A stretch of 11,452 nt of DNA from a virus (IMGVR_UViG_3300015187_000032), one strand, 5' to 3'; shown: positions 1-11,452, numbered from the stretch's first letter. Made by a program: numbers and translations. Notes: a model not told the origin generated them from the letters alone.

Positions 1-1107
1 TCCTGCCGTCAACAGCCAGCAGGCAAAAGTATGCCGCGTATGGTACGGATTATGGCGGCGAATACCAGCACGTTTTACTGCTGCATTCCACCTTGCCCCC
101 AAACTGCTTACCGAGTAATAAGGTTTTTGTTTTCCGTTACACACCCTGGGCATGAAAACAAAATGCAGTTTTTGCTTTTCGGTTCTGCCGTACTCCCGAT
201 GATAAAAGGTGATTTCGCTTTTGCGATGATGCCCGGTCAGTTTGTATTGCTCCTTCAGTGCTTCAAGAGCAGGCTGCAGTAGTGTTACTGTCCGGATCCC
301 GGCATTTGTTTTTGGGGGACCGAACATATCAAGTATCGTCAGGTTTCTTCTGACATTCACTATTCCCTTTTCGAGATCCACATCCTCCCACGCCAGAGCT
401 GCCAGTTCCCCGTGACGAAGTCCTGAGTAAACGGCAAATTTCCACAAGTTCTGGCTCTGTCCTTTTTCACTTTCCATTAATGCATTGAATTCTGTTTTAG
501 ATAACGGATCAGGCTTTATTCTGTTTCGCTGTAATTTTTTTACTCCTTCAAATGGTTTGGTTAATATAAATCCCGACTGATACGCAAAACGCAACAGCGA
601 ACAGAGCAGGGCGATATAGTTATCAACAGTGCGCACGGTTCTTCCTTTTTTGTTGGATCTTGGATTATCCAGGTAAAGCGTTTCTCCATGCAGCAGTTCA
701 TTCCGGTAGTTTAAGATATCGCTATAACGAATATGTGATATCAGGGTACTTTCACAAATTATTATTCTGAGTGTTTTTAATTGTGATTTCGTTTTCTTCA
801 TTGTGTTTGTTGTTAACTCTGTCTCTTTAATTTTTGTCCAGATATCACAAAGCTCCCCGAACGTTTTTATGACTCTCGTTGTCACCATTTTTGCCCCAGT
901 GCTGGACTGGGGAAAACGTCTTAAATACTCAAATTCACCGGAGTTTATTTCATGAACTATCAGTGCTCTTAAATTTCCGGCCTTTTTAATATTACTGTTT
1001 GTAATCTCCCAGCCTTTTAATGTTTCCCGACATCGTTTTCCTCGAAACATGAACCAGATGCGAATGTATCTACCTCTAATCTCGACACCTGTTGGTAATT
1101 TAGACAT
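1..1107 (-). CDS. intR: Prophage tyrosine integrase, 5' part only (N-terminal 369 codons; C-terminus with catalytic Tyr lies beyond position 1)
   Basis: Minus-strand frame is open from the window edge to ATG at rc 1105-1107. N-terminus reads MSKLPTGVEIRGRYIRIWF (hand-translated). The codons nearest the window edge give ...NPYHTRHTFACWLLTAG, the His-X-X-Arg box of tyrosine recombinases. Not in the ORF track because it is edge-truncated. Upstream xis stop overlaps the start (rc 1105-1111 = TGATATG). Confidence 0.85.
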   Translation of the reverse strand, partial: MSKLPTGVEIRGRYIRIWFMFRGKRCRETLKGWEITNSNIKKAGNLRALIVHEINSGEFEYLRRFPQSSTGAKMVTTRVIKTFGELCDIWTKIKETELTTNTMKKTKSQLKTLRIIICESTLISHIRYSDILNYRNELLHGETLYLDNPRSNKKGRTVRTVDNYIALLCSLLRFAYQSGFILTKPFEGVKKLQRNRIKPDPLSKTEFNALMESEKGQSQNLWKFAVYSGLRHGELAALAWEDVDLEKGIVNVRRNLTILDMFGPPKTNAGIRTVTLLQPALEALKEQYKLTGHHRKSEITFYHREYGRTEKQKLHFVFMPRVCNGKQKPYYSVSSLGARWNAAVKRAGIRRHNPYHTRHTFACWLLTAG

Positions 1108-1108
1108 A

Positions 1109-1324
1109 TCATGAGTCTTTGATAAACTGATTTATCTTTGGATAGTTGTACCAGATAATCCCTCGTTTGCTGTCTGGCTTACCTAAAGGAGATACTCGTT
1201 TGAAGTGGAAGCCCTCCACCCAACAGTTCTGGCGGTATGCTTCAATTTGTCTGGCCCCCAGACCAGTGCGAAGCATCAGGCCGTATTCAACCATCCACTC
1301 TTCATTAAAGATTACTTGTGCCAT
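1109..1324 (-). CDS. xisR: Excisionase-like small protein (71 aa) directly upstream of int
   Basis: Track ORF 1109..1348 uses a TTG start. Internal ATG at rc 1322-1324 is preceded by GAGGTG with 5-nt spacing, giving [15 protein letters not shown]... (71 aa). Position immediately upstream of int with 1-nt gap fits an xis-int cassette. Also known as ydaQ. Confidence 0.7.
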
Positions 1325-1423
1325 CGCATCACCTCTGGCAGGCGCCAATGTTAGACTGAAATTGACGCCCGATGTTGATTATTAATAATCAGCTATGAAG
1401 TTTTAATTTGAATACAATGCAAT

Positions 1424-1612
1424 TCACGAGGACTGAAGTTTCTCGCAATTAAAATTAATCAGTTTTACTTTCTGCTCTCTGGAAACGCCTGCTTCTTTTT
1501 TACCTGAGAGCATTTTTTCACATTCTGATTTCGTTAGTTTAGATTTTGAATATCTTGTCCAGTTAGTAGGAGTGCCACCTTCCTTTTCAATAGTGGCGGT
1601 AATTTTATACAT
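1424..1612 (-). CDS. ydaC: Small prophage protein of unknown function (YdaC-like, 62 aa from this start)
   Basis: Track ORF 1424..1684. ATG at rc 1610-1612 is preceded by GGAGGTG at 6-nt spacing (rc of 1613-1630), giving MYKITATIEKEGG.... The longer 86-aa start would overlap lar by about 80 nt and lacks an SD. Start choice is inference. Confidence 0.6.
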   Translation of the reverse strand: MYKITATIEKEGGTPTNWTRYSKSKLTKSECEKMLSGKKEAGVSREQKVKLINFNCEKLQSS

Positions 1613-1799
1613 GAACACCTCCATTATTATTTCCAGTGGTTCGTTTATTCCATCTTTCGAGTGCTTCTTTTTCACTTCCACCATAACCGGTTCGGGATTC
1701 GCATCCGTTACACTTCGCTCGGTAATATGCTGAAATGGCTTTCACCGTTACTGATGGACAACCACAAAATGGACATGGTTTAACATTGTCATATCTCAT
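1605..1799 (-). CDS. ralR: Lar/RalR: restriction-alleviation protein, reported as the DNase toxin of a type I toxin-antitoxin pair; zinc-ribbon-like CxxC...CxxC
   Basis: Track ORF 1605..1811 (MRNVMRYDNVKPCPFCGCPS...AKCNGCES...). Two CxxC pairs (CPFC, CNGC) form a zinc-ribbon-like motif. I chose the second ATG (rc 1797-1799) to give 64 aa, matching my recollection of the K-12 protein; ATG at 1809-1811 is an alternative. Neither has a strong SD. Confidence 0.7.
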   Translation of the reverse strand: MRYDNVKPCPFCGCPSVTVKAISAYYRAKCNGCESRTGYGGSEKEALERWNKRTTGNNNGGVHV

Positions 1800-1854
1800 A
1801 ACATTTCTCATAAAAATATTTCAAGTTCGCGGTGCATTACACCGCCAGGCTGAA

Positions 1855-2664
1855 TTATTCCTCTGAATTATCGATTACACTGTATTCCCCGGTTAATACA
1901 GAGGAATCTGCAGGATCGATTGTCAGTGGTTCCTTTTCATCCATTGATACTGCACGCTGGATCTCAATTGATACGGGCAGATATTTGAACAGGCGACGAA
2001 TAGCCGTTTTCTTTGCCATTTCTTCCCAGTGAGTTACCCACGGCCCGTTATTACTAGCTTTACTCTGGCTGCGCACCAGCTCAATCTGTTTGCGCGTCAT
2101 AACTTCAAACTGAGTACCTCCGTCTTTCAGTCTTGCGACAGCATAGACGTGGGTAACCGGGGCATCTTCGTTTTCTCCTGGGCGGTGTATTAACTTTTCA
2201 TCAAGGCCAAATTCGAAATTAAACTCGTCACCTTCACGGACAACACGGGCTGACAGGCTGGCGATTTGACCTGAACGGCGAGCCAGATCAATCATGCCGC
2301 GATAGCCAATGATTAGCTGAACGTTTTTTTTACCGCTCTTTTCGTTTTTATTACCAAAAGGCAGTAAATATGCATGACCGAGAGCGCTACCGGGCTCAAG
2401 CCCGAGCTGTGAACACTGTACGATTGCACTGACAAAACTCATAGTGTCACAGTTTCCTAACGCCGGAACTTTACGAATTTCTGTGGTGGCGATACGGATC
2501 ATACGTTCAGCCGTCATATGGCGTGGAAGAGCTGCTGCCAGTTGCTCTTTCATTGATGGCTGGTTAATAAAACTAATCACGTCGTTATTTTTAATTGCTG
2601 CTGGTGCACGGTTTCCCTGAGTTTTTTGCAGATCGGCTTTTGCGATTGGTGGTTGCTTAGTCAT
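1855..2664 (-). CDS. recT: RecT single-strand annealing protein (269 aa)
   Basis: Track ORF 1855..2721 with start trimmed to [13 protein letters not shown]... (ATG rc 2662-2664). AAGGA lies upstream at rc 2672-2676. The start overlaps the recE stop (ATGACTAA). Sequence recognised as Rac RecT. Confidence 0.9.
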
Positions 2665-5257
2665 TTGCATATTCCTTAGCCCAGCGGGGCAGTGATAACG
2701 TCTTAATAGCTGGCCATTCATCGGTATTGAGGCAGTCAGCCAGGGTTCGCAGATTGCGGTGATATTCCAGCTGACCTGCCAGTTTTGCTTCTTCGCCCAT
2801 CATGAAAATTTCAACCGGATAACGTCCGCATTCAATAGTTGTGCTGGCAACCAGAAAAACGAAAGTTGGCTGCACTCCAAACTGTGCTTCATAACCGTCA
2901 CTGTAGAATGCATCCTGAACGTGATAGCGGTAGTCGTAATAAGCGGTTTTGAATCGTTGAATATCCGCCGTAGTTTTCACGTCCATGATCCAGTGAAATT
3001 CAGGGATAATTTTGTCCGGACGGCACCGACACAAAATTCCTGTTTCAGGATCTTCCCAGTAAATTGATGATTCAGCGTGTCCGGCGCTTTCAATAAGCCA
3101 TTGCCCCAGCGGCAAAGCCATAACGCTTTGATACATGAGTTCAATTTTCCGGCCTTCTTCCGCAGTGATAACCGTTTTTCCTGTGCTTGCGCATTCCATC
3201 AGAAACGCTTTCTCTTCTTCTTTTCCGGCGTTTGTACGGCGATTAAATTCAGGTGCTACGATAAAGCGGTTACTGAATTCTTCCGGTTCAAGTACCCGGC
3301 AGTGGAAAGCGGTTCCTAAATCGAGCGTTTTTGTCTTTGTGGTGTCCACGGGGGCATTTTTACGCCACAAATACAGTGCCGGAGTATCAGCAATGTCATC
3401 GAGCTGAGACTTACTGACACCGGGACCCGCGTGGTAATTCTCATTCGAAATTCCGTAATAAATACCTGGCTCTATGTCTTCTACGATTACGGGATCTGCG
3501 ACTTCGCCAGTTTCATCACTGCAATCGCGATGCGGATCGCTGCCAGCATTCTCATTGTGCGGATGTTCAGCGCCTTCCATTTCCTCCGGATCATTTTCCT
3601 TAGCTTCAACCTGACTCTCTTCATCGAATGTTTCCTGGTATGTTGCCTCGCCCATCACCGCACCACAGTCAGGGCAGTTATCCCCGCCAGTCTGGCCGCA
3701 GGCATTGCAGGCTATTTCCGGTTCCTGTTGCACTACTGGCTCAGGTTGATTCATATCCGGGCTGGTTTTTTCCGTTTCTGGCTGGTTCTGGTGCACAGAA
3801 TCGCGAGTCTGGATCCCCTTTACCCATTTCGGATCGTTCGGGTCGCTAATTCCGTCAACAAATTCACCACGTGATGCAGCAAGCAATTTATCGGCATCGA
3901 CAGGATTTTTTGATGGAATGTTTTTCCGGGCTTCATGGAGTTCTGCCCGCAGTTTCTGATATTTCGCATCAACAGAATTTACCTGTGACTGAGCATCCAA
4001 CGGCTGCGTGTCCTGATGATGTTCAGTTGCGTCCGGTTCCATTGTTTCAGCCTCTCCCTGTTCAACTGCCGTTGTTCCAGATGGTTGCGGTTTTTCTTCA
4101 TCATCCTGTTTTCCTTCTTCTGTTACTCGCTGCGGCATCGGGGCAGAGGAGCGACCGCAGGCAATATCCACGATTTCCGGATCAGGGTTTGCATGATCGG
4201 TTTCAGTCAGTACTTTGTTCAGATATTCAGTGACGTGCGCGGGGATGACCTCGATCCCAATTGGTGCTTCTTTTACGGACGCAACCACGATGGCGCGGGA
4301 ATAATCCAGCCCGCCAGGCATGGTGATGAATTTGTCGCGGAAAACAGAAAAGGGCGGTTTATTTTCAGCGATAATTTCCTCAATGCGTTTAGCGTGTGCC
4401 GGATGAAGGTTATAGATGTCTAGATCCATTGAACGGGCCAGTACGCCAGTGGCTACGTCGCGCGCCAGTGACGTCAGATCGTGTACGAAACCTTCGCCGC
4501 GATCGGTGAGGTTTCCGCCGCCAGCATTAGCACCGGAAGCCGTGCGAGTGATGTGTGAAACACGATTACCCTTCATCCACTCTTTTGTCAGCAGTCCTCG
4601 ATCGGTGTAGTCAGCGTTCAGGTATGCTTCGAAAAAAGCAGTTATCAGTCCCAGGTTTGAATTACCAGGATTAGGGAAAACTTTGTCAGTGTCACGAACC
4701 AGTTTGTGGAGATCGCGAATTTCCAGCGGGTCGAGCAGGCTGGTTTTGTGGGAAACAGCCAGGGCAGTAACAGCCGGTAGTTCTTCAGCCCGAGCAATGT
4801 GTAATGCCTGGAGTCCGTCGCGTGAAACGTGCGTTACCGGTTTTTCGCTGCCGTGTTGAGCAAGCCAGCGAATGGGCAGTTCCTGGCCAGAAATTGGGAG
4901 TAGCATATTCTCCTCAATCTCAGTCATGTCTTCGCCGTTGACGTTGGTATTGCCTTGATAGTGAGCGTTGTCTGGTGCTGCTCCCGGTTTTAGTTCCCAT
5001 GTCATGGAGTCTTTGCTGAGTTGATAGCGTTCACTCCAGGTAAAATCGATCTCACCTTCAGCGGGCAGGTCATTAACGACAGGAAAATTCGTGGCAACAG
5101 CTTTAAAATAGCTGCTCAGTTTTTTACCTGACTTAACGATCAGGTAGTCCAGAGTGGCACAGGTCGATTCAAAATCGTCGCTTGCCCACAGGACGACGTC
5201 AGGTTCACCGGATGATTTTTTCGCTTTCCGTAACAGGAAGAGTGGTTTTGTGCTCAT
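2657..5257 (-). CDS. recE: RecE exonuclease VIII (866 aa), 5'-3' dsDNA exonuclease partner of RecT
   Basis: Single 866-aa ORF on the minus strand. C-terminal part (...[32 protein letters not shown]...DVKTT...) is the nuclease domain. Middle is acidic and low-complexity, with a Cys4 motif (CNAC-x10-CPDC). Length and sequence fit Rac RecE. Confidence 0.9.
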
Positions 5258-5328
5258 TGTTTTTTAACCTCAACTCAGATTAAAATTCGTTTTGTTCAGT
5301 GAATGATCTTGCCGGATACACACTGTTC

Positions 5329-5353
5329 ATAGCCTGCGCCATACGCAGGCTAT
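5329..5353 (-). other. Perfect 10-bp stem / 5-nt loop hairpin 6 nt downstream of the racC stop, between racC and recE
   Basis: 5329-5338 ATAGCCTGCG pairs with 5344-5353 CGCAGGCTAT; loop is CCATA. On the minus-strand transcript it is not followed by a U-tract, so it is not a canonical intrinsic terminator. Confidence 0.3.
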
Positions 5354-5358
5354 TTCTT

Positions 5359-5634
5359 TCAGATTTCACCTTTTAATTTCATTGCAATTAGAGTTGCCAG
5401 AAATTCGGCTTTTTTTTCTGTGGGCAGATTCTTTCCGGTATGCACCAGGCACATTTTTTTGACACCTTCGTGAAGTGTTTTAACGTTGCCTGATGGACCG
5501 TCGATATCAACCACAGTGAATGGGGTTTCTTTATTTTCTGTTTTAATCACGTAGCCAATACGCTTTCCTTCCAGATTAACTTCGTGAACAATGTCATCAG
5601 TAGTTACAACAGTGGCTTCATAACTGGTAATCAT
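5359..5634 (-). CDS. racC: RacC small prophage protein (91 aa)
   Basis: Track ORF 5359..5682 trimmed to ATG at rc 5632-5634 (MITSYEATVVTTDD...), preceded by AAGGAG at 6-nt spacing (rc of 5635-5650). Confidence 0.75.
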   Translation of the reverse strand: MITSYEATVVTTDDIVHEVNLEGKRIGYVIKTENKETPFTVVDIDGPSGNVKTLHEGVKKMCLVHTGKNLPTEKKAEFLATLIAMKLKGEI

Positions 5635-5708
5635 GTTTTTCTCCTTAATTAAGGTTGAGCGAATCCCTGCCATTGCTGGCATAAATTCAGTTTCGCATAG
5701 TCAGTTAA

Positions 5709-5879
5709 TTAAAGTTCGTGTGCCATCTGGTCTTTTTCGGCACATATTTCACTACAATATTTTTTCATTTCCGTCGTTGGGATAACTCCACGCATGAAAT
5801 GAAGTGGTCTTTTAATGCTTTTGCTTTCTTTAACTTCTTTATCGCAAAGATGGTAAGCACATTTTATTTTCTTAGTCAT
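5709..5879 (-). CDS. ydaE: YdaE small Cys-rich (putative zinc-binding) protein, 56 aa; missing from the ORF track (<60 aa)
   Basis: Hand translation of the minus strand gives [56 protein letters not shown] with stop TAA (rc 5709-5711). Four Cys (C7, C12, C43, C47). The ATG overlaps the kilR stop (rc 5877-5881 = TGATG), suggesting translational coupling. Confidence 0.65.
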   Translation of the reverse strand: MTKKIKCAYHLCDKEVKESKSIKRPLHFMRGVIPTTEMKKYCSEICAEKDQMAHEL

Positions 5880-6100
5880 CACCATGACTCCGCCTTTACA
5901 GGTAAACCATCACGACCGAGGAAGACTTTAATCATGCAGTCAGTAATGCATGTTTTTGTGGTCAGGTTACGAATATAAAGTTTTCGCTTTTTAATATTGT
6001 TTGCCGAGGCAATATATGTCCGGCCGTTATGAAGAATATAATCACCAGGAGTCACACACTGACGAGGTATTTCATCAGTTCCGAAGTGATGAGCAATCAT
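5879..6100 (-). CDS. kilR: KilR: prophage Kil protein, cell-division (FtsZ) inhibitor (73 aa)
   Basis: Track ORF 5879..6118 (GTG start) trimmed to ATG at rc 6098-6100 ([14 protein letters not shown]...), with GGAG 6 nt upstream. Recognised as Rac KilR. Confidence 0.75.
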
Positions 6101-6261
6101 AATTATCTCCATTTTCACAAATGAACTTTGTTGATGCGGTGCCTGGTGCCTCCAGGTGACGTTAACCAGTTAACAATTAACGCCGGATAATCCACCCATA
6201 ACACTGATGCTTTTAACTGTTCCGCGTGCGCTTAGCCGCATTCACCGCATCACAAAATTCA

Positions 6262-6312
6262 CTTTAAAAAGGGCGGACATCAGCCGAACTTCAAGAAAAA
6301 AACTGATGCCGC
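6262..6312 (-). terminator. Candidate intrinsic terminator on the minus strand, upstream of kilR in the leftward transcription direction
   Basis: GC-rich stem 6271-6282 (GGCGGACATCAG) pairs with 6302-6312 (CTGATGCCGCC), 11 bp with one bulge and a 19-nt A-rich loop. On the minus strand it is followed directly by CTTTTTAAAG (rc of 6261-6270). Confidence 0.3.
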
Positions 6313-6531
6313 CAGGACTACACACAGCAATGTCGTTATTTACAACCGGAGGCGCACTCCCACCATTTAAATTTAACAGACAAGACCGACTCTTTATGGA
6401 TATCGGAAATGCGCCTTCGTGTTGTGCCCGGTTTTATTTCACCACCTCCGGGCTTCGGTGGTCTCGGCTATACCCCTACAGCGAGAGCTTGTGTTAACAT
6501 TTCAATACCCTTACAGTTGAGAGTTATTGAT

Positions 6532-7020
6532 ATGTTGGATGTATTTACTCCATTGTTGAAACTTTTTGCTAACGAGCCACTCGAAAGACTTATGTATACG
6601 ATTATCATTTTTGGTCTCACTCTCTGGCTGATACCGAAAGAGTTTACTGTCGCATTCAATGCTTATACTGAAATACCTTGGCTCTTTCAGATTATCGTTT
6701 TTGCCTTTTCTTTCGTGGTCGCCATTTCCTTCTCAAGATTGCGAGCACATATTCAAAAGCATTATTCATTACTACCAGAGCAACGAGTATTGCTTCGTTT
6801 ATCTGAGAAAGAAATCGCTGTATTTAAAGATTTCCTTAAAACAGGAAATCTTATTATCACTTCTCCTTGTCGTAACCCGGTTATGAAAAAATTAGAACGG
6901 AAGGGCATCATTCAACATCAGAGTGATAGCGCAAACTGTTCTTATTATCTCGTCACCGAAAAATACTCCCATTTTATGAAGTTATTCTGGAACAGCAGGA
7001 GTAGACGTTTTAATCGTTAG
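6532..7020 (+). CDS. sieB: SieB superinfection-exclusion protein (162 aa), membrane protein
   Basis: Track ORF 6409..7020 trimmed to ATG 6532 (MLDVFTPLLKLFANEPLERLMYTIIIFGLTLWLIPKEF...). Two hydrophobic segments are predicted. Encoded opposite to the surrounding leftward operon. The stop overlaps the ydaF stop on the other strand. Confidence 0.8.
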   Translation: MLDVFTPLLKLFANEPLERLMYTIIIFGLTLWLIPKEFTVAFNAYTEIPWLFQIIVFAFSFVVAISFSRLRAHIQKHYSLLPEQRVLLRLSEKEIAVFKDFLKTGNLIITSPCRNPVMKKLERKGIIQHQSDSANCSYYLVTEKYSHFMKLFWNSRSRRFNR

Positions 7021-7172
7021 CTTACTGTGTGCTTCTCCAACCATCGGCGCGCACCAGTTTCTGTTTTAAATGTTTTGCTTTTGGTATACGTCATAGCAGT
7101 GAACGTTCCATCTTGGTTGGGGAACACGCCGCACACAATGGATTCGTTATTGCCGAGGTCGATTTTTTGCAT
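7017..7172 (-). CDS. ydaF: YdaF small prophage protein (51 aa); missing from the ORF track
   Basis: Hand translation gives MQKIDLGNNESIVCGVFPNQDGTFTAMTYTKSKTFKTETGARRWLEKHTVS. ATG at rc 7170-7172 is preceded by GAGGTG, which contains the ydaG stop codon. Stop TAA at rc 7017-7019. Confidence 0.55.
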   Translation of the reverse strand: MQKIDLGNNESIVCGVFPNQDGTFTAMTYTKSKTFKTETGARRWLEKHTVS

Positions 7173-7182
7173 TTTTCGCACC

Positions 7183-7317
7183 TCACATCTTGTTGTTGCG
7201 GATAGAGGCTTCTGCCTGCCAGAGATCCCAGTCGTTGCTGCGTAAAGCCTGCACAGCCTGGTTGTAAGTGATGCCGCAACAATCCATCAAATACTGAACT
7301 ACTTCGTAATGCACCAT
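7183..7317 (-). CDS. ydaG: YdaG small prophage protein (44 aa); missing from the ORF track
   Basis: Hand translation gives MVHYEVVQYLMDCCGITYNQAVQALRSNDWDLWQAEASIRNNKM. ATG at rc 7315-7317 is preceded by GGGGAGA at about 6-nt spacing. First gene downstream of the leftward early promoter. Confidence 0.6.
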   Translation of the reverse strand: MVHYEVVQYLMDCCGITYNQAVQALRSNDWDLWQAEASIRNNKM

Positions 7318-7486
7318 CTTATCTCTCCCCTTAACGCCGGGTGGCGGAACTAACTGCTGCACTGCAAAATTTGAATCCCGCCGTCATGTTCATACGCCTC
7401 GGGCTGGCTACTTAACCCCTGACCACTGCCTGGTAACTCGAAGTATTGCCCGGCGTTCTGTGGGGCGGGGTGGGTGGTATGCTGGA

Positions 7487-7515
7487 ACTATAGGTAATGC
7501 CTAATTGATTGTCAA
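7487..7515 (-). promoter_or_regulatory. pL-like leftward early promoter: TTGACA -17 bp- TATAGT on the minus strand
   Basis: rc of 7510-7515 is TTGACA; rc of 7487-7492 is TATAGT; the spacer is exactly 17 bp. Oriented toward ydaG-ydaF-kilR-recET. Flanked and overlapped by the operator palindromes. Confidence 0.45.
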
Positions 7516-7528
7516 TAGGCTATGCCTA
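7491..7528. promoter_or_regulatory. Left operator cluster (OL-like): two 13-bp TAGGC-N3-GCCTA palindromes 25 bp apart
   Basis: 7491-7503 TAGGTAATGCCTA (imperfect) and 7516-7528 TAGGCTATGCCTA (perfect). The second abuts the -35; the first overlaps the -10. The same 13-mer family recurs three times on the other side of racR. Confidence 0.5.
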
Positions 7529-7589
7529 ATATTTTGAGCGTAACCTAATAGGTGATGGCGACAGCAGAAAGTGATGGGGGGGTTAAATA

Positions 7590-7611
7590 ACGGAATCCAG
7601 GAGTTTTCCGT
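7590..7611 (-). terminator. Weak candidate terminator hairpin downstream of racR
   Basis: ACGGAA (7590-7595) pairs with TTCCGT (7606-7611), loop 10 nt. On the minus strand it is followed by UUAUUUAA then a C7 run. Sits about 15 nt past the racR stop (TAA, rc 7626-7628). Confidence 0.2.
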
Positions 7612-7625
7612 CAGACCATATAAGT

Positions 7626-8102
7626 TTAAGTTCCAGTTTTTGTGATGTTCTGGCTTTTCCGTTCAGATTCTAGAGCTTTCAGATACTTACCCACTTTCAT
7701 TTCCATCGCTGCTATGTAGGCGCGAACATCGTGGTCAACCCAATCTGGTTCTGTAGCATTTCCAGATAACAGGAAAGCTACAATCGCTCTTATTTCATCA
7801 GAGGCTGCTTGATAAAGGTTGTTTATATCTAAAAGTTCACTTTTTGTATCTGAATTGGTGGGGGTTGGTATGGGGTATTCGTTAAGCCCCCAATGCTCTG
7901 GACCAACAACATCAGAAAAGAAACGCCATAATTCTGGAAGTTTATCTTTACTTATAGAGCCTTTCTTAATCCAGTCATAAATTGATGGTGGTTGGACTTT
8001 GAAGTGGCGTGCGACCTCCGCCTTTGATTTGACGGATCCCGATGCGATTTTTTTGTTAATGGCCTGCTCTATCGCTCGGCCTAAGTCTTTACCACTAAGC
8101 AT
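7626..8102 (-). CDS. racR: RacR prophage repressor (158 aa), HTH DNA-binding protein
   Basis: Track ORF 7626..8102. Divergent from ydaS across a 123-bp operator-rich intergenic region. Sequence recognised as Rac RacR. Confidence 0.85.
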   Translation of the reverse strand: MLSGKDLGRAIEQAINKKIASGSVKSKAEVARHFKVQPPSIYDWIKKGSISKDKLPELWRFFSDVVGPEHWGLNEYPIPTPTNSDTKSELLDINNLYQAASDEIRAIVAFLLSGNATEPDWVDHDVRAYIAAMEMKVGKYLKALESERKSQNITKTGT

Positions 8103-8131
8103 TGCTTAATATTCTCCTATGCGCATTGCAT

Positions 8132-8195
8132 TAGGCAATCCCTACCTTTATCGTATTAGGCATAGCCTATTGACATTTGCGTTAGGCGTCGCCTA
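8132..8195. promoter_or_regulatory. Right operator cluster (OR-like): three 13-bp TAGGC-N3-GCCTA palindromes at 25-26-bp centre spacing, between racR and ydaS
   Basis: 8132-8144 TAGGCAATCCCTA (imperfect), 8157-8169 TAGGCATAGCCTA (perfect), 8183-8195 TAGGCGTCGCCTA (perfect). The 21-bp block 8155-8175 is the exact reverse complement of 7510-7530. Confidence 0.5.
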
Positions 8196-8199
8196 ATAT
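8170..8199 (+). promoter_or_regulatory. pR-like rightward early promoter: TTGACA -18 bp- TAATAT
   Basis: TTGACA at 8170-8175; best -10 candidate TAATAT at 8194-8199, overlapping the third operator. Followed by GGAG (8214-8217) and the ydaS ATG at 8226. Confidence 0.4.
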
Positions 8200-8225
8200 T
8201 TCTGTGTGTTTTTGGAGTTCATTCG

Positions 8226-8522
8226 ATGAAAAAAGAGAACTATTCATTCAAGCAAGCTTGTGCTGTTGTCGGTGGGCAATCAGCAATGGCTAGGCTTTTA
8301 GGTGTATCACCTCCAAGCGTAAATCAATGGATCAAAGGGGTACGTCAATTGCCTGCCGAGAGATGTCCAGCAATTGAACGTGCAACAAGAGGTGAGGTTC
8401 TGTGCGAAGAACTTCGTCCAGATATTGACTGGTCATATTTACGACGTTCGGCATGTTGTTCGCAGAATATGTCAGTGAAGCAACTAAATGACAGTAACAA
8501 ATCCTCATTTGATCATACCTGA
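8226..8522 (+). CDS. ydaS: YdaS: Cro-like HTH early protein (98 aa), toxic when derepressed
   Basis: Track ORF 8226..8522, first gene of the rightward operon. ...SAMARLLGVSPPSVNQWIKG... is an HTH-like segment. Recognised as Rac YdaS. Confidence 0.85.
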   Translation: MKKENYSFKQACAVVGGQSAMARLLGVSPPSVNQWIKGVRQLPAERCPAIERATRGEVLCEELRPDIDWSYLRRSACCSQNMSVKQLNDSNKSSFDHT

Positions 8523-8544
8523 AACATCAAGAGGCAAATGATTC

Positions 8545-8967
8545 ATGAAAATCAAGCATGAGCACATCGAATCAGTGTTGTTTGCCCTGGCAGCCGAAAA
8601 AGGGCAGGCATGGGTAGCCAATGCAATTACTGAAGAATATCTGCGCCAGGGGGGCGGCGAATTGCCCCTAGTTCCAGGCAAGGACTGGAACAATCAGCAG
8701 AATATCTATCACCGTTGGTTGAAAGGTGAAACGAAAACGCAAAGAGAAAAAATTCAGAAGCTGATCCCAGCAATTCTGGCAATCCTTCCGCGCGAGCTGC
8801 GTCACCGACTCTGCATCTTCGATACCCTGGAACGCCGTGCATTACTGGCGGCGCAGGAAGCGTTAAGTACGGCAATTGATGCGCATGATGATGCAGTCCA
8901 GGCCGTTTACCGGAAAGCGCATTTCAGCGGCGGCGGGTCTTCCGACGATTCTGTCATTGTTCATTAA
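8545..8967 (+). CDS. ydaT: YdaT: CII-like / toxin-like early protein (140 aa)
   Basis: Track ORF 8545..8967; SD AAGAGG upstream of the ATG. Recognised as Rac YdaT. Confidence 0.85.
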   Translation: MKIKHEHIESVLFALAAEKGQAWVANAITEEYLRQGGGELPLVPGKDWNNQQNIYHRWLKGETKTQREKIQKLIPAILAILPRELRHRLCIFDTLERRALLAAQEALSTAIDAHDDAVQAVYRKAHFSGGGSSDDSVIVH

Positions 8968-8979
8968 GCAAAAGTTTCC

Positions 8980-9837
8980 ATGCTGTTTGTGCTTATTCTA
9001 AGCAACCGGGCAGCATCATACGGGGCAATTATGGCCGCATTACCATACATGCAACTGTACATAGCTGATTACCTGGCTGACACCATGCATTTGTCAGCAG
9101 AGGAGCATGGTGCGTATTTGTTGCTGATGTTCAATTACTGGCAAACAGGAAAGCCAATACCTAAAAACAGGCTGGCAAAAATTGCCCGTCTGACTAACGA
9201 GCGATGGGCTGGTGTTGAACCATCCTTGCGGGAGTTTTTTTGCGATAACGGCGAGGAATGGGTGCATCTTCGGATTGAGGAAGATCTGGCATCAGTCAGG
9301 GAAAAATTAACCAAAAAATCAGCCGCAGGAAAAGCATCTGTTCAGGCTAGAAGAAGCAGAAAGGAAGCAGATGTTCAAACAAAACAAGAGAGAAATTTAA
9401 CAGGTGTTCAAACAGATGTTGAAGTGGTGTTTGAACATGATGTCAACACAAAGGCAACTAATAAAGATACAGATAAAGATCTAAAAACAGATCCCCCCCT
9501 AAATCCCCCCCGGGGGAATCGAGGTGTCAAAAAGTTTGACCCTCTGGATATTGCTTTGCCGAACTGGATTTCTGTCTCGCTTTGGCGTGAGTGGGTTGAA
9601 TTTCGCCAGGCATTGCGTAAACCGATTCGAACGGAGCAGGGCGCTAACGGGGCGATACGGGAGCTGGAAAAATTCCGCCAGCAGGGTTTTTCACCTGAGC
9701 AGGTGATTCGACACAGCATCGCCAACGAATACAAGGGCTTGTTCGCGCCGAAAGGTGTTCGACCTGAGACGTTACTCCGACAGGTTAACACCGTTTCGTT
9801 ACCGGACAGTGCGATCCCGCCAGGCTTCAGGGGGTAA
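8980..9837 (+). CDS. ydaU: YdaU: replication-initiator-like protein (DUF1376-type; lambda O position)
   Basis: Track ORF 8980..9837 (285 aa). No SD before the ATG at 8980. An alternative start at 9031 (MAALPYMQLYIADYLADT...) follows a GGGG motif and may be the true start. Central linker region contains iteron-like repeats. Confidence 0.75.
   Translation: MLFVLILSNRAASYGAIMAALPYMQLYIADYLADTMHLSAEEHGAYLLLMFNYWQTGKPIPKNRLAKIARLTNERWAGVEPSLREFFCDNGEEWVHLRIEEDLASVREKLTKKSAAGKASVQARRSRKEADVQTKQERNLTGVQTDVEVVFEHDVNTKATNKDTDKDLKTDPPLNPPRGNRGVKKFDPLDIALPNWISVSLWREWVEFRQALRKPIRTEQGANGAIRELEKFRQQGFSPEQVIRHSIANEYKGLFAPKGVRPETLLRQVNTVSLPDSAIPPGFRG
9368..9520. repeat. Candidate replication-origin repeats inside ydaU: three 10-bp TGTTCAAACA copies followed by an A-rich tract and a C7/C7/G5 block
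   Basis: TGTTCAAACA at 9372-9381 and 9405-9414 (direct) and 9428-9437 (inverted). A-rich stretch 9451-9491. CCCCCCC at 9493-9499 and 9505-9511, then GGGGG at 9512-9516. Layout resembles the lambda ori inside the O gene. Confidence 0.3.
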
Positions 9838-9843
9838 CTGACC

Positions 9844-10590
9844 ATGAAAAATATTGCGACAGGCGGCGTTCTTGAACGTATCCGCAGACTGGCTCCGTCA
9901 CATGTAACCGCGCCATTCAAGACGGTGGCGGAGTGGCGTGAGTGGCAACTTTCCGAAGGCCAGAAACGTTGTGAGGAGATCAACCGTCAGAATCGTCAGT
10001 TGCGGGTGGAAAAAATTCTGAATCGCTCTGGCATCCAGCCATTGCACCGCAAATGCTCGTTTTCGAATTACCAGGTGCAGAACGACGGTCAGCGATACGC
10101 GTTGAGCCAGGCGAAATTCATCGCCGATGAACTGATGGTCGGGTGTACAAATTTTGCGTTCAGTGGAAAACCTGGTACCGGAAAAAACCATCTGGCGGCG
10201 GCTATCGGGAATCGCCTGCTGAAAGACGGTCAGACAGTGATTGTGGTTACCGTGGCTGATGTTATGAGCGCCCTGCACGCCAGCTATGACGACGGGCAGT
10301 CAGGCGAAAAATTTTTGCGGGAACTGTGCGAAGTTGATCTGCTGGTTCTTGATGAAATTGGTATTCAGCGCGAGACGAAAAACGAGCAGGTGGTACTGCA
10401 CCAGATTGTTGATCGCCGGACAGCGTCGATGCGCGGCGTGGGAATGCTGACAAACCTGAACTATGAGGCCATGAAAACATTGCTCGGCGCGCGGATTATG
10501 GATCGCATGACCATGAACGGCGGACGCTGGGTGAATTTTAACTGGGAGAGCTGGCGTCCGAATGTCGTCCAGCCAGGAATTGCGAAGTAA
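9844..10590 (+). CDS. ydaV: YdaV: DnaC-like AAA+ helicase loader (248 aa)
   Basis: Track ORF 9844..10590. Walker [16 protein letters not shown] and Walker [10 protein letters not shown] are present. IstB/DnaC-like protein at the lambda P position. Confidence 0.85.
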
Positions 10591-10612
10591 TTTTTACCGG
10601 GAGAAAAATTTA

Positions 10613-11380
10613 ATGGAGACTGTTTTTGACGCACTGAAAGCAATGGGAATAGCCACATCCATAGAACTTGCTGCGCGACTTGATATCAGTCGTGAAGAAG
10701 TGCTGAACGAACTATGGGAACTGAAAAAGGCTGGTTTTGTTGATAAAAGCGCGTACACCTGGCGTGTGGCTGATAACAACGTTCAGCAGGAACAGCCAGC
10801 GCAGGCAGAACTGCCGGAAGAAACCACCACAGCAACAGTAGCGAAAATCTCAGAGTGCGATTTAACCGCGACGATTGAACAACGCGGACCACAAACGGCT
10901 GATGAGCTGGCTACATTGTTTGGTACCACATCACGCAAAGTGGCTTCAACGCTGGCAATGGCAATCAGCAAAGGTCGTCTGATTCGCGTAAATCAGGGCG
11001 GTAAATTTCGTTACTGCATACCGGGCGATAATTTACCAGCAGAGCCGAAAGCAGCATCGGTAGCGGAAACTGATGGTAAGGCCTTTCCTCAGACCGCAGG
11101 TGTCGCGTTACCAGTACAGGAGGCTGCAACACAGGAAGAAATTAAAACAGATACTATGGGGGACATTGTGCAGTCACTACCATCGTTCACTGAAACGCGA
11201 GCCAATGACCTGATTTTACCATCGCTGCATATGGCAAACCGCGAACTGCGCCGGGCGAAAAGTCATGTCCAGAAGTGGGAGCGAGTCTGCGCCGCGCTGC
11301 GTGAGCTGAACAAGCACCAGGATATTGTTCGACAGATTACGGATTCTTTTCCGAGGCAACACGGCGGAAAGAATCCGTAA
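10613..11380 (+). CDS. ydaW: YdaW-like protein with two tandem winged-helix-like segments (255 aa from this start)
   Basis: Track ORF 10562..11380 trimmed to ATG 10613 ([12 protein letters not shown]...), with GGGAGA 8 nt upstream. The longer start overlaps ydaV by 29 nt. Two similar HTH-like segments: [31 protein letters not shown] and [31 protein letters not shown]. The 3' end lies inside a large palindrome. Symbol assigned by position in the Rac map. Confidence 0.6.
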
Positions 11381-11416
11381 TCTGTCGAACAATAACCTGT
11401 AGCTTGTTCAGCTCAC
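11301..11416. repeat. Large imperfect palindrome (about 55-bp arms) spanning the ydaW stop codon
   Basis: Inner 13-bp perfect stem 11337-11349 / 11368-11380, plus 3 more bp after a 1-nt bulge, loop about 11 nt. Outer arms 11301-11336 and 11381-11416 match 33/36 as reverse complements. The minus strand reads a near-identical C-terminal peptide ending at TAA (rc 11337-11339). Confidence 0.6.
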
Positions 11417-11452
11417 GCCCCGAGTCTGCACCACGCTGCGCTCGCTGGACAA

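What the first reader, a model, noticed from the sequence alone, without database searches (positions are those of the whole stretch)
3665..3709. Cys4 (CxxC-x10-CxxC) motif inside the acidic N-terminal region of RecE
RecE residues 517-534 read [16 protein letters not shown], a zinc-ribbon-like arrangement. It is embedded in a long acidic, low-complexity segment well upstream of the C-terminal exonuclease domain. The N-terminal two-thirds of RecE is functionally obscure; a metal-binding module there could mediate protein or DNA interactions.
Basis: seen in the sequence. Interest (0 to 1): 0.4.

Follow-up and report, generated by a model that had tools for sequence, protein, structure and literature searches.

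The report
Conserved Cys4 zinc-knuckle module in RecE
The four cysteines in the acidic middle of the Rac prophage RecE exonuclease are real and belong to a roughly 30-residue, probably zinc-binding mini-domain that phages also attach to other DNA enzymes and small proteins; its role is untested.

Summary
The window is the E. coli Rac prophage. The finding lies in recE (2657-5257, minus strand). Cys517, Cys520, Cys528 and Cys531 are encoded exactly at 3665-3709. The spacing is CxxC-x7-CxxC, not x10, and the quoted string covers residues 517-532, not 517-534.

The cysteines sit in a conserved module of about 30 residues: C-x2-C-G-x2-GGG-x-C-P-D-C-G-x-V-M-G-D-x-T-Y-x-E-x-F (RecE 516-544). The acidic linker around it is otherwise unconserved.

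Where the module exists, all four Cys are kept. The exception is one E. coli lineage carrying C517F, most of whose members also carry a Tyr-to-Asn change. Many RecE homologues (Gifsy-1/2, SPN3UB, Klebsiella phages) lack the whole module.

The same module occurs in at least six protein architectures:
- RecE-type 5'-3' exonucleases
- DnaQ-like 3'-5' exonuclease fusions
- nuclease-less RecE-like proteins of Stx phages
- the C-termini of Dam methylases of P2-like phages
- small early proteins of a Mu-like early region
- a C-x6-C-x2-CPDC variant that still has four Cys

The module is net acidic, so a protein-docking zinc knuckle is more likely than a DNA binder. No Pfam family reaches threshold, structure prediction was inconclusive, and no paper found mentions the module. 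Metal binding and function remain untested.

The parts
3665..3709 (-). Cys4 core, RecE residues 517-531: C517-N-A-C520-G-Q-T-G-G-D-N-C528-P-D-C531 (CxxC-x7-CxxC)
   Evidence: Translation. All four Cys are invariant in the non-redundant alignment.
3626..3712 (-). Full conserved module, RecE 516-544: [29 protein letters not shown] (two knuckles plus the G-x-V-M-G-D/E-x-T-Y-x-E-x-F tail)
   Evidence: Alignments A1, A2 and A4. A non-redundant alignment of 20 sequences shows invariant columns only here. pN/pS is 0.13 (0.27 at positions not fixed by my regex) against 0.72 in the flanks.
3443..4117 (-). Acidic linker with few predicted structural elements, RecE 381-605, in which the module is embedded (53 D/E, 16 K/R of 225 residues)
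   Evidence: Composition. No Pfam domain. Apart from the module and the 454-486 motif it is poorly conserved between clades.
3800..3898 (-). Second short conserved island in the linker, RecE 454-486: [33 protein letters not shown]. It occurs with or without the Cys4 module.
   Evidence: Present in Rac, Tritos, Stx-phage 75/02 and Gifsy-2 proteins. Gifsy-2 has this motif but no Cys4 module, and the Pseudocitrobacter RecE has the module but not this motif.
2660..3442 (-). C-terminal PD-(D/E)XK 5'-3' exonuclease domain, RecE 606-866
   Evidence: Pfam PF12684 matches residues 615-850. PDB 3H4R matches 605-866 at E=1.4e-178.
4724..5254 (-). N-terminal Exonuc_VIII domain (PF06630), RecE 2-178, function unknown
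   Evidence: Pfam E=6e-98. Papers from 2023 and 2026 state that the function of the RecE N-terminus is unknown.
2657..5257 (-). recE coding sequence (866 aa plus stop)
   Evidence: ORF list and translation. RefSeq annotation of the identical locus.

Best explanation
Cys517, Cys520, Cys528 and Cys531 most likely coordinate one structural metal ion, probably Zn2+. That would pin two adjacent CxxCG knuckles into a compact fold of about 30 residues, together with the tail [14 protein letters not shown]. This small fold would sit as an island in the otherwise acidic RecE linker, which has few predicted structural elements.

The fold is a portable module. Phages of Enterobacterales, and one Aeromonas phage, attach it to different early-region proteins: RecE-type 5'-3' exonucleases, DnaQ-like 3'-5' exonucleases, nuclease-less RecE-like proteins, Dam methyltransferases and small proteins.

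The module carries no net positive charge and works in unrelated enzymes. The most likely job is therefore to dock its carrier onto a common protein partner, host or phage and so far unidentified, rather than to bind DNA or take part in catalysis.

The module is not part of the minimal recombination machinery. [quoted passage not shown] It could contribute to the extra linear-linear recombination activity reported for full-length RecE.

Shown here: the motif, its conservation, its selection signature, its modular distribution and its charge. Inferred: metal binding, the fold and the docking role.
For: **Presence and rarity.** The motif is present and is unlikely by chance.

**Sets collected without reference to the module.**
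- 112 of 120 close RecE clusters keep all four Cys.
- Among 120 relatives of a RecE from Pseudocitrobacter that is about 26% identical to Rac RecE, 45 carry the module with all four Cys. The other 75 lack the whole module. My screen found none that keeps the module with a Cys replaced.

**Conservation confined to the module.** In 20 sequences less than 75% identical to each other, the invariant columns are C, C, G, C, C, G, G, T and Y, all within the module.

**Selection acts on the protein.**
- Each Cys codon shows TGC/TGT synonymous variation.
- pN/pS is 0.13 for the module, or 0.27 at positions my regex did not fix, against 0.72 for the flanks.

**Four Cys survive changes in spacing.**
- An x11 loop arises from an AVGG duplication.
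- A C-x6-C-x2-CPDC subfamily also has four Cys.

**Modular distribution.**
- The module is paired with Rac-type or Gifsy-type PD-(D/E)XK domains, with the Rv2179c-like DEDD exonuclease domain PF16473, or with no nuclease domain.
- It forms the C-terminus of D12-class Dam methylases in P2-like phages.
- It occurs in a 79-aa protein beside Kil and GemA in a Mu-like early region.
- PHROG exonuclease profiles match these unrelated proteins only over the module, with E from 1e-15 to 1e-6.

**Resemblance to zinc-binding folds.**
- All sub-threshold Pfam hits are to zinc-ribbon or zinc-finger families.
- The weak PDB hits carry zinc-ribbon or zinc-finger names.

**Charge.** Net charge of 84 unique modules ranges from 0 to -5, mean -3.

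**Dispensability.** The nuclease domain substitutes genetically for full-length RecE, while the full-length protein enhances linear-linear recombination (review PMC11611040).
Against: - Metal binding is untested.
- No Pfam zinc-ribbon model reaches its gathering score; the best for RecE is 13.8 bits against a cut-off of 27.
- AlphaFold2 gave only pLDDT 62-65 over the module with isolated beta bridges.
- The full-length model was poor throughout, with a mean pLDDT of 46.9 and even the crystallised nuclease domain below 50.
- Many functional-looking RecE homologues lack the module.
- Seven of 120 E. coli clusters carry C517F, and one has the whole segment deleted. The module is therefore dispensable in at least some settings.
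- Most loci used for the codon analysis were found with patterns that include CPDC or the tail. Conservation in that set is partly built in.
- No partner protein has been identified.
Confidence: 0.6

Rival explanations
1. The module is a nucleic-acid-binding zinc ribbon. It would help RecE, the DnaQ-like exonuclease and the Dam methylases to engage DNA ends or single-stranded DNA.
For: All large carriers are DNA enzymes. From general knowledge, zinc ribbons in proteins such as TFIIB, RadA and primases often contact nucleic acid; these families appear among the weak hits.
Against: The RecE module has no Lys or Arg. All 84 unique modules have a net charge of 0 to -5. The flanks are strongly acidic. 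Truncated RecE without the module is a fully active nuclease (the commercial truncated enzyme is mentioned).
Confidence: 0.12
2. The cysteines form a redox-active or iron site rather than a structural zinc site. This could be a rubredoxin-like Fe(Cys)4 centre or a CxxC disulfide switch that senses oxidative or metal stress.
For: CxxCG...CPxCG is, from general knowledge, the rubredoxin knuckle signature. ChsH2 rubredoxin-like zinc ribbon appears among the weak Pfam hits.
Against: The knuckles are 7 residues apart, against about 29 in rubredoxin (from memory). The module lacks the aromatic core of rubredoxin. Nothing in the carriers or their gene neighbourhoods points to redox chemistry. Sequence alone cannot separate Zn from Fe.
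Confidence: 0.08
3. The motif has no function of its own. It would be a remnant carried along in a linker that serves as a recombination joint between mosaic phage genes, and it looks conserved only because the copies share recent ancestry.
For: - The module sits at the junction where different N- and C-terminal domains are combined.
- It is absent from many RecE homologues.
- C517F variants and whole-segment deletions exist.
- recE in Rac is part of a cryptic prophage.
Against: - Synonymous divergence inside the module is high (pS 0.36-0.56) while amino-acid change is low.
- The flanks change freely.
- The module is also found at the C-termini of Dam methylases and small proteins that have no RecE-like flanks.
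- Four Cys persist in a rearranged C-x6-C-x2-CPDC form.
Confidence: 0.12

Closest known systems
Short zinc ribbons and zinc knuckles: Pfam Zn_ribbon_3 (PF13248), Zn_Ribbon_TF (PF08271), DZR (PF12773); small CPxCG zinc-finger proteins such as Haloferax HVO_2753/DUF1610 (PDB 6ydh, 9fhl)
   Same: Two CxxC knuckles close together, each followed by Gly, with the second reading CPxCG. The size is about 25-30 residues. All weak profile hits of the module are to these families.
   Different: No family reaches its curated threshold. The inter-knuckle loop is very short (7 residues) and glycine-rich. The module has a conserved tail, G-x-V-M-G-D-x-T-Y-x-E-x-F, that none of these families has. It is acidic and sits inside a linker with few predicted structural elements.
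Rubredoxin-type metal knuckles (CxxCG ... CPxCG)
   Same: The local signature of both knuckles is identical.
   Different: Spacing is 7 residues rather than about 29 (from memory). There is no aromatic core and no redox context.
N-terminal C4 zinc finger of the DNA repair protein RadA/Sms (PDB 5lkm, 8rxc)
   Same: A small C4 knuckle pair attached to a recombination or repair enzyme. It is a weak profile hit (E about 0.5).
   Different: The hit is not significant. The position in the protein and the rest of the protein are different, and the conserved tail is absent.
RecE / exonuclease VIII family (PF06630 plus PF12684; PDB 3H4R)
   Same: The carrier protein in this window is RecE itself.
   Different: The module is not a defining part of the family. 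Gifsy-1/2, SPN3UB and Klebsiella-phage RecE lack it, and it occurs in proteins outside the family.

Membership tests
RecE / exodeoxyribonuclease VIII | N-terminal Exonuc_VIII domain (PF06630) above the Pfam threshold | tested here: met
   327.1 bits against a cut-off of 25, residues 2-178.
RecE / exodeoxyribonuclease VIII | C-terminal PD-(D/E)XK nuclease domain matching the solved RecE structure | tested here: met
   PF12684 scores 96.3 bits against a cut-off of 26. PDB 3H4R matches at E=1.4e-178 over residues 605-866.
Zinc ribbon (any specific Pfam family) | Score at or above the family's gathering threshold | tested here: not met
   The best hit for RecE is Zn_ribbon_3 at 13.8 bits against 27. 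Across 29 module variants the best E-values are 7e-4 to 7e-3, with no match reported at a curated threshold.
Zinc ribbon / zinc knuckle (generic) | Four metal ligands arranged as two CxxC (or CxxH) knuckles | tested here: met
   C517-x2-C520 and C528-x2-C531. All four are invariant where the module exists.
Zinc ribbon / zinc knuckle (generic) | Knuckles at the tips of beta hairpins forming a small sheet | tested here: inconclusive
   The AlphaFold2 model of residues 495-560 has pLDDT 62-65 over the module and only isolated beta bridges. Foldseek against the PDB found nothing significant.
Zinc ribbon / zinc knuckle (generic) | Stoichiometric metal binding | not testable with these tools
   This needs ICP-MS, a PAR assay or a structure of the purified fragment.
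Rubredoxin | CxxCG and CPxCG knuckles separated by about 29 residues around an aromatic core (spacing from memory) | tested here: not met
   The knuckle signatures are present, but the spacer is 7 residues of G/Q/T/D/N with no aromatic residue.
DnaJ-type CxxCxGxG repeat | Four repeats of C-x-x-C-x-G-x-G (pattern from memory) | tested here: not met
   There are only two CxxC units, and the glycines are in a different register: CNACGQTGG and CPDCGAV.

The most novel reading that the evidence does not exclude
The module is a previously unrecognised 'address tag'. This would be a zinc-stabilised peptide that recruits otherwise unrelated phage early proteins to one hub in the infected cell. The carriers are 5'-3' exonucleases, 3'-5' exonucleases, Dam methylases and small proteins of Mu-like and other phages. 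Candidate hubs are SSB or the replisome, or a host nuclease or defence complex. If true, it would give the first handle on what the large RecE N-terminal region does. It would also define a phage-host interaction motif: a 201-bp stretch of recE containing the module matches 87% of complete E. coli genomes.
Probability: 0.25. Interest if true: 0.65.

Novelty: new member of a known kind. Interest (0 to 1): 0.4.

Why it matters
RecE/RecT is a standard recombineering tool. Papers from 2023 and 2026 still state that the function of the large RecE N-terminus is unknown.

This module is one of only two short conserved islands in the 225-residue acidic linker. It is small enough to mutate cleanly. It also recurs in Dam methylases, DnaQ-like exonucleases and small phage proteins.

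That recurrence turns a vague question, what the N-terminus does, into specific experiments: does the module bind zinc, and what does it bind to. A shared partner would explain why full-length RecE behaves differently from the truncated enzyme. It could also reveal a common recruitment route for phage DNA enzymes.

If the module turns out to be only a structural staple, the finding is a modest annotation improvement for a very common prophage gene.

Tried and rejected
1. **Full-length AlphaFold2 with a 53-sequence alignment.** Mean pLDDT was 46.9, and even the crystallised nuclease domain was below 50. This was probably caused by misalignment with Gifsy-type nuclease domains that carry a large insertion. 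The model is not usable for the module. Foldseek with it recovered only 3H4R.

2. **AlphaFold2 of residues 495-560 with 29 module variants.** pLDDT was 62-65 over the module. No coordinates are returned, so Cys-Cys distances could not be measured. Foldseek against the PDB gave nothing.

3. **Profile search of the 5.8-billion-protein set with the module alignment.** It returned only 31 short fragments. These nevertheless revealed the small-protein carriers.

4. **A hit in an Acidobacteriota genome (L021).** It is the zinc knuckle of methionyl-tRNA synthetase, a chance resemblance and not a homologue.

5. **A gene or RNA on the opposite strand.** Antisense stop-free stretches over the module vary widely in length between homologues, with no sign of a conserved antisense gene. 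Rfam finds no RNA family there.

6. **A clamp-binding motif (QL[SD]LF-like, from memory) in the tail.** Rejected, because the Enterobacter-type modules read TYAAME or TYAEME, with no Q or F.

7. **DnaJ-type and rubredoxin membership.** Rejected on glycine register and on spacing respectively.

8. **The Fu et al. 2012 truncation data.** The paper is not held in the library, so I could not check whether truncations that keep or lose residues 516-544 differ.

Full report
**Context**

The 11,452-base window matches E. coli chromosomes at up to 100% identity over 11,348 bases. It carries the left part of the Rac prophage: intR, xisR, ralR, recT, recE, kilR, sieB, racR and ydaS-V.

The finding lies in the 866-codon ORF at 2657-5257 on the minus strand. 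This ORF is annotated recE, exodeoxyribonuclease VIII. Pfam finds the Exonuc_VIII domain at residues 2-178 and the PD-(D/E)XK-like domain at 615-850. The only solved structure that matches is 3H4R, covering residues 605-866.

**Check of the observation**

- Bases 3665-3709 on the minus strand read [15 protein letters not shown].
- The cysteines are residues 517, 520, 528 and 531. They are the only CxxC pairs among the 13 cysteines of the protein.
- The spacing is CxxC-x7-CxxC, not x10 as the title says. The quoted 16-residue string ends at 532, not 534.
- The acidic setting is real. Residues 381-605 hold 53 D/E and 16 K/R.
- Random placement of 13 Cys in 866 positions gives two CxxC pairs within 2-20 residues in 10 of 20,000 trials.

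**The motif is part of a larger conserved module**

Comparison with homologues shows that the cysteines sit in a unit of about 30 residues: v-C-x2-C-G-x2-G-G-G-x-C-P-D-C-G-x-V-M-G-D-x-T-Y-x-E-x-F. In RecE this is residues 516-544, window 3626-3712.

I aligned 20 sequences that are less than 75% identical to each other over a 145-residue stretch. The only invariant columns are the four Cys, three Gly, and the Thr and Tyr of the tail. Pro and Asp of CPDC are nearly invariant. Between the two main clades the flanking linker is essentially unalignable.

**Is conservation real or built in?**

Two protein sets were collected without reference to the module.

- *Close RecE relatives.* Among the 120 best 90%-identity clusters, 112 keep all four Cys and 7 have C517F. 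Six of those seven also carry Tyr-to-Asn in the conserved tail, which suggests decay in one lineage. One cluster has lost the whole segment by a deletion between two 'RD' dipeptides.
- *Distant RecE relatives.* Among the 120 best relatives of the Pseudocitrobacter RecE (about 26% identical to Rac RecE), 45 have the module with all four Cys. The other 75 lack the module altogether. My screen found none that keeps the module with a Cys replaced.

At the DNA level each Cys codon varies between TGC and TGT. Summed pairwise Nei-Gojobori counts gave the following.

| Region | pN/pS |
|---|---|
| 24-codon module | 0.13 |
| The 16 module positions my regex did not fix | 0.27 |
| Flanking 101 aligned columns | 0.72 |

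The loci used for these counts were found with peptide patterns that include CPDC or the tail. The figure of 0.13 is therefore biased downward, and 0.27 is the fairer number. I conclude that the protein sequence, not the DNA, is under constraint.

**Distribution**

The module is not a constant feature of RecE. Gifsy-2, SPN3UB and a Klebsiella-phage RecE (961-1012 aa) have an acidic linker without it.

It also occurs well outside RecE:

- Rac-type RecE.
- Proteins of about 990-1050 aa with a Rac-like or Gifsy-like N-terminus and a Gifsy-type PD-(D/E)XK domain.
- Proteins of 811-823 aa of the phage Tritos / CP-933P type. Their C-terminus is an Rv2179c-like DEDD 3'-5' exonuclease (PF16473, E=2e-67).
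- A 682-aa protein of Stx phage 75/02 that has no nuclease domain. It is followed by genes annotated gam-like, RecT-like annealing protein and exonuclease.
- The extreme C-terminus of D12-class Dam methyltransferases. These are found in P2-like prophage contigs, in Salmonella phages SW3, SW5 and SI7, in Enterobacter phage phiT5282H and in a Trabulsiella genome.
- Proteins of 76-79 aa. One is encoded beside Kil and GemA in a Mu-like early region.

A variant subfamily reads C-x6-C-x2-C-P-D-C-G-[AP]-V-M-G, so it still has four Cys. It ends small proteins of other phages and lies inside a 299-aa protein of Aeromonas phage 14AhydR10PP. PHROG exonuclease profiles match these unrelated proteins only across the module, with E from 1e-15 to 1e-6. 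This supports homology of the module itself.

A 201-bp stretch of recE containing the module matches 4,735 of 5,426 complete E. coli genomes, with a median of two copies and up to nine.

**What kind of fold**

- No Pfam family reaches threshold. For RecE the best is Zn_ribbon_3 at 13.8 bits against a cut-off of 27.
- When 29 module variants are scanned, every weak hit is to a zinc-ribbon or zinc-finger family. Zn_Ribbon_TF is hit by 23 of 29, RZ-type by 19, Zn_ribbon_3 by 15 and DZR by 11.
- A profile of the module hits PDB chains with zinc-ribbon or zinc-finger names at marginal E-values. These are VapC6 (2lcq), DUF1610/HVO_2753 proteins (6ydh, 9fhl), RadA, MetRS and TFIIB.
- From general knowledge, CxxCG and CPxCG are the classic knuckle signatures of rubredoxin-like zinc ribbons.
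- Structure prediction did not settle the matter. The full-length model is poor throughout. The model of residues 495-560 has its highest confidence on the module, but only at pLDDT 62-65.

**How it most likely works**

Shown:
- Four Cys are kept through changes in loop length and even through a rearranged spacing.
- A conserved hydrophobic and aromatic tail follows the knuckles.
- All 84 unique modules have a net charge between 0 and -5, mean -3, and the RecE copy has no Lys or Arg.
- The flanks are acidic.
- The carriers have unrelated catalytic domains or none.

Inferred:
- One metal ion, probably zinc, staples a small fold.
- That fold serves as a docking surface for a protein partner shared by these phage early proteins.

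It is unlikely to bind DNA directly. It is not needed for nuclease activity or basic RecET recombination, because the C-terminal domain alone substitutes genetically. Full-length RecE does have enhanced linear-linear recombination (review PMC11611040). The partner is unlikely to be RecT alone. The Tritos-type gene has no annotated recT next to it, and no recombination genes appear near the Dam fusions examined.

**Rivals**

- Direct nucleic-acid binding is disfavoured by charge.
- A redox or iron site cannot be excluded by sequence, but nothing in the context supports it.
- A functionless remnant at a mosaic joint is disfavoured by the synonymous/non-synonymous contrast and by the module's presence on proteins without RecE-like flanks. 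It is kept alive by the C517F lineage, the natural deletions and the many RecE homologues that lack the module.

**Comparison with the literature**

- A 2023 structural review, a 2023 recombineering review and a 2026 paper all state that the function of the RecE N-terminus is unknown. The 2023 structural review contains no occurrence of 'zinc' or 'cysteine'.
- A 2025 survey of lambdoid recombination modules notes DnaQ-like nucleases and 'RecE-2' proteins without a nuclease domain. It suggests shuffling of partner-interaction domains. Its only occurrences of 'zinc' seen are in a reference title, and the sections read do not describe this module.
- Full-text searches linking RecE or exonuclease VIII with zinc found nothing on target.
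- The library lacks most subscription journals, and I could not consult UniProt or InterPro. A prior annotation therefore cannot be fully excluded.

**Verdict**

The zinc-ribbon-like reading is reasonable, and the conservation evidence strengthens it. The new element is that the module is a mobile mini-domain shared by several classes of phage proteins.

It is an undescribed member of a well-known kind (Cys4 zinc knuckles). Interest is moderate, because it offers a concrete and cheap experimental route into the long-unexplained RecE N-terminal region. Function remains inferred.

Noticed in passing
window 3800-3898 (-), RecE residues 454-486: A second short conserved island in the acidic linker: [33 protein letters not shown]. 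It is shared by Rac, Tritos-type, Stx-phage 682-aa and Gifsy-type proteins. It occurs independently of the Cys4 module: Gifsy-2 has it without the module, and the Pseudocitrobacter RecE has the module without it.
   Followed up: partly
L125, L130, L138, L145, L019; phages SW3/SW5/SI7 (L183) and phiT5282H: D12-class Dam methyltransferases of P2-like phages carry the module as a C-terminal extension. They end in acidic tails such as ...ALDADPF, ...NAEPF, ...DGSEGF and ...DDRNIF. From memory, these resemble the SSB C-terminal tip (DDDIPF).
   Followed up: partly
L005 1582-4053 (phage Tritos); also L013, L015-L017: Proteins annotated 'exonuclease VIII' of 811-823 aa share the RecE linker and module, but their C-terminus is an Rv2179c-like DEDD 3'-5' exonuclease domain (PF16473) instead of the PD-(D/E)XK domain. 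In Tritos the gene sits next to xis and int with no annotated recT between them.
   Followed up: partly
L004 1615-3663 (Shigella phage 75/02 Stx): A 682-aa RecE-like protein with the module but no nuclease domain. It lies directly upstream of genes annotated gam-like, RecT-like annealing protein and exonuclease. It probably corresponds to the 'RecE-2' class mentioned in PMC12315714.
   Followed up: partly
P0291; L186 2605-3105; L187 2248-3111; L182 3087-3986 (Aeromonas phage 14AhydR10PP): A variant subfamily with rearranged cysteines, C-x6-C-x2-C-P-D-C-G-[AP]-V-M-G-x-x-T-Y-x-E-M-F. It is usually at the C-terminus of small phage proteins whose N-terminal parts are unrelated.
   Followed up: partly
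P0202 residues 447-464 and P0244 residues 454-471 (distant RecE-nuclease relatives): A different Cys4 motif, CxxCG-x9-CxDC, lies roughly 50-80 residues upstream of the PD-(D/E)XK domain. These proteins resemble RecE only in the nuclease domain. The motif could be an independent or very distant counterpart.
   Followed up: no
P0006 and P0129 (E. coli RecE variants): Natural in-frame deletions. P0006 joins 'RD' of residue 486 to 'RD' before Cys579, removing the module. P0129 joins the N-domain motif GANAGGGN to the GGGN of the module by microhomology, removing the first knuckle.
   Followed up: no
window about 4484-4546 (-), RecE residues about 238-258: The motif [21 protein letters not shown] in the N-terminal region is retained in many RecE-N homologues, including some only 29-35% identical overall. 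AlphaFold2 confidence is low across residues 237-249.
   Followed up: no
window 1428-1606 (+): RalA antitoxin sRNA (Rfam RF02694, 222.7 bits) next to the ralR toxin gene.
   Followed up: no
window 5709-5879 (-): The 56-aa YdaE family protein has its own four-cysteine arrangement, C7-x4-C12 ... C42-x3-C46. It is unrelated in sequence to the RecE module.
   Followed up: no
window 11349-11452: The best E. coli matches, including the 100%-identical ones, cover only bases 1-11348. The last 104 bases, inside the DUF1627 gene region, are not aligned in any of the eight listed matches.
   Followed up: no
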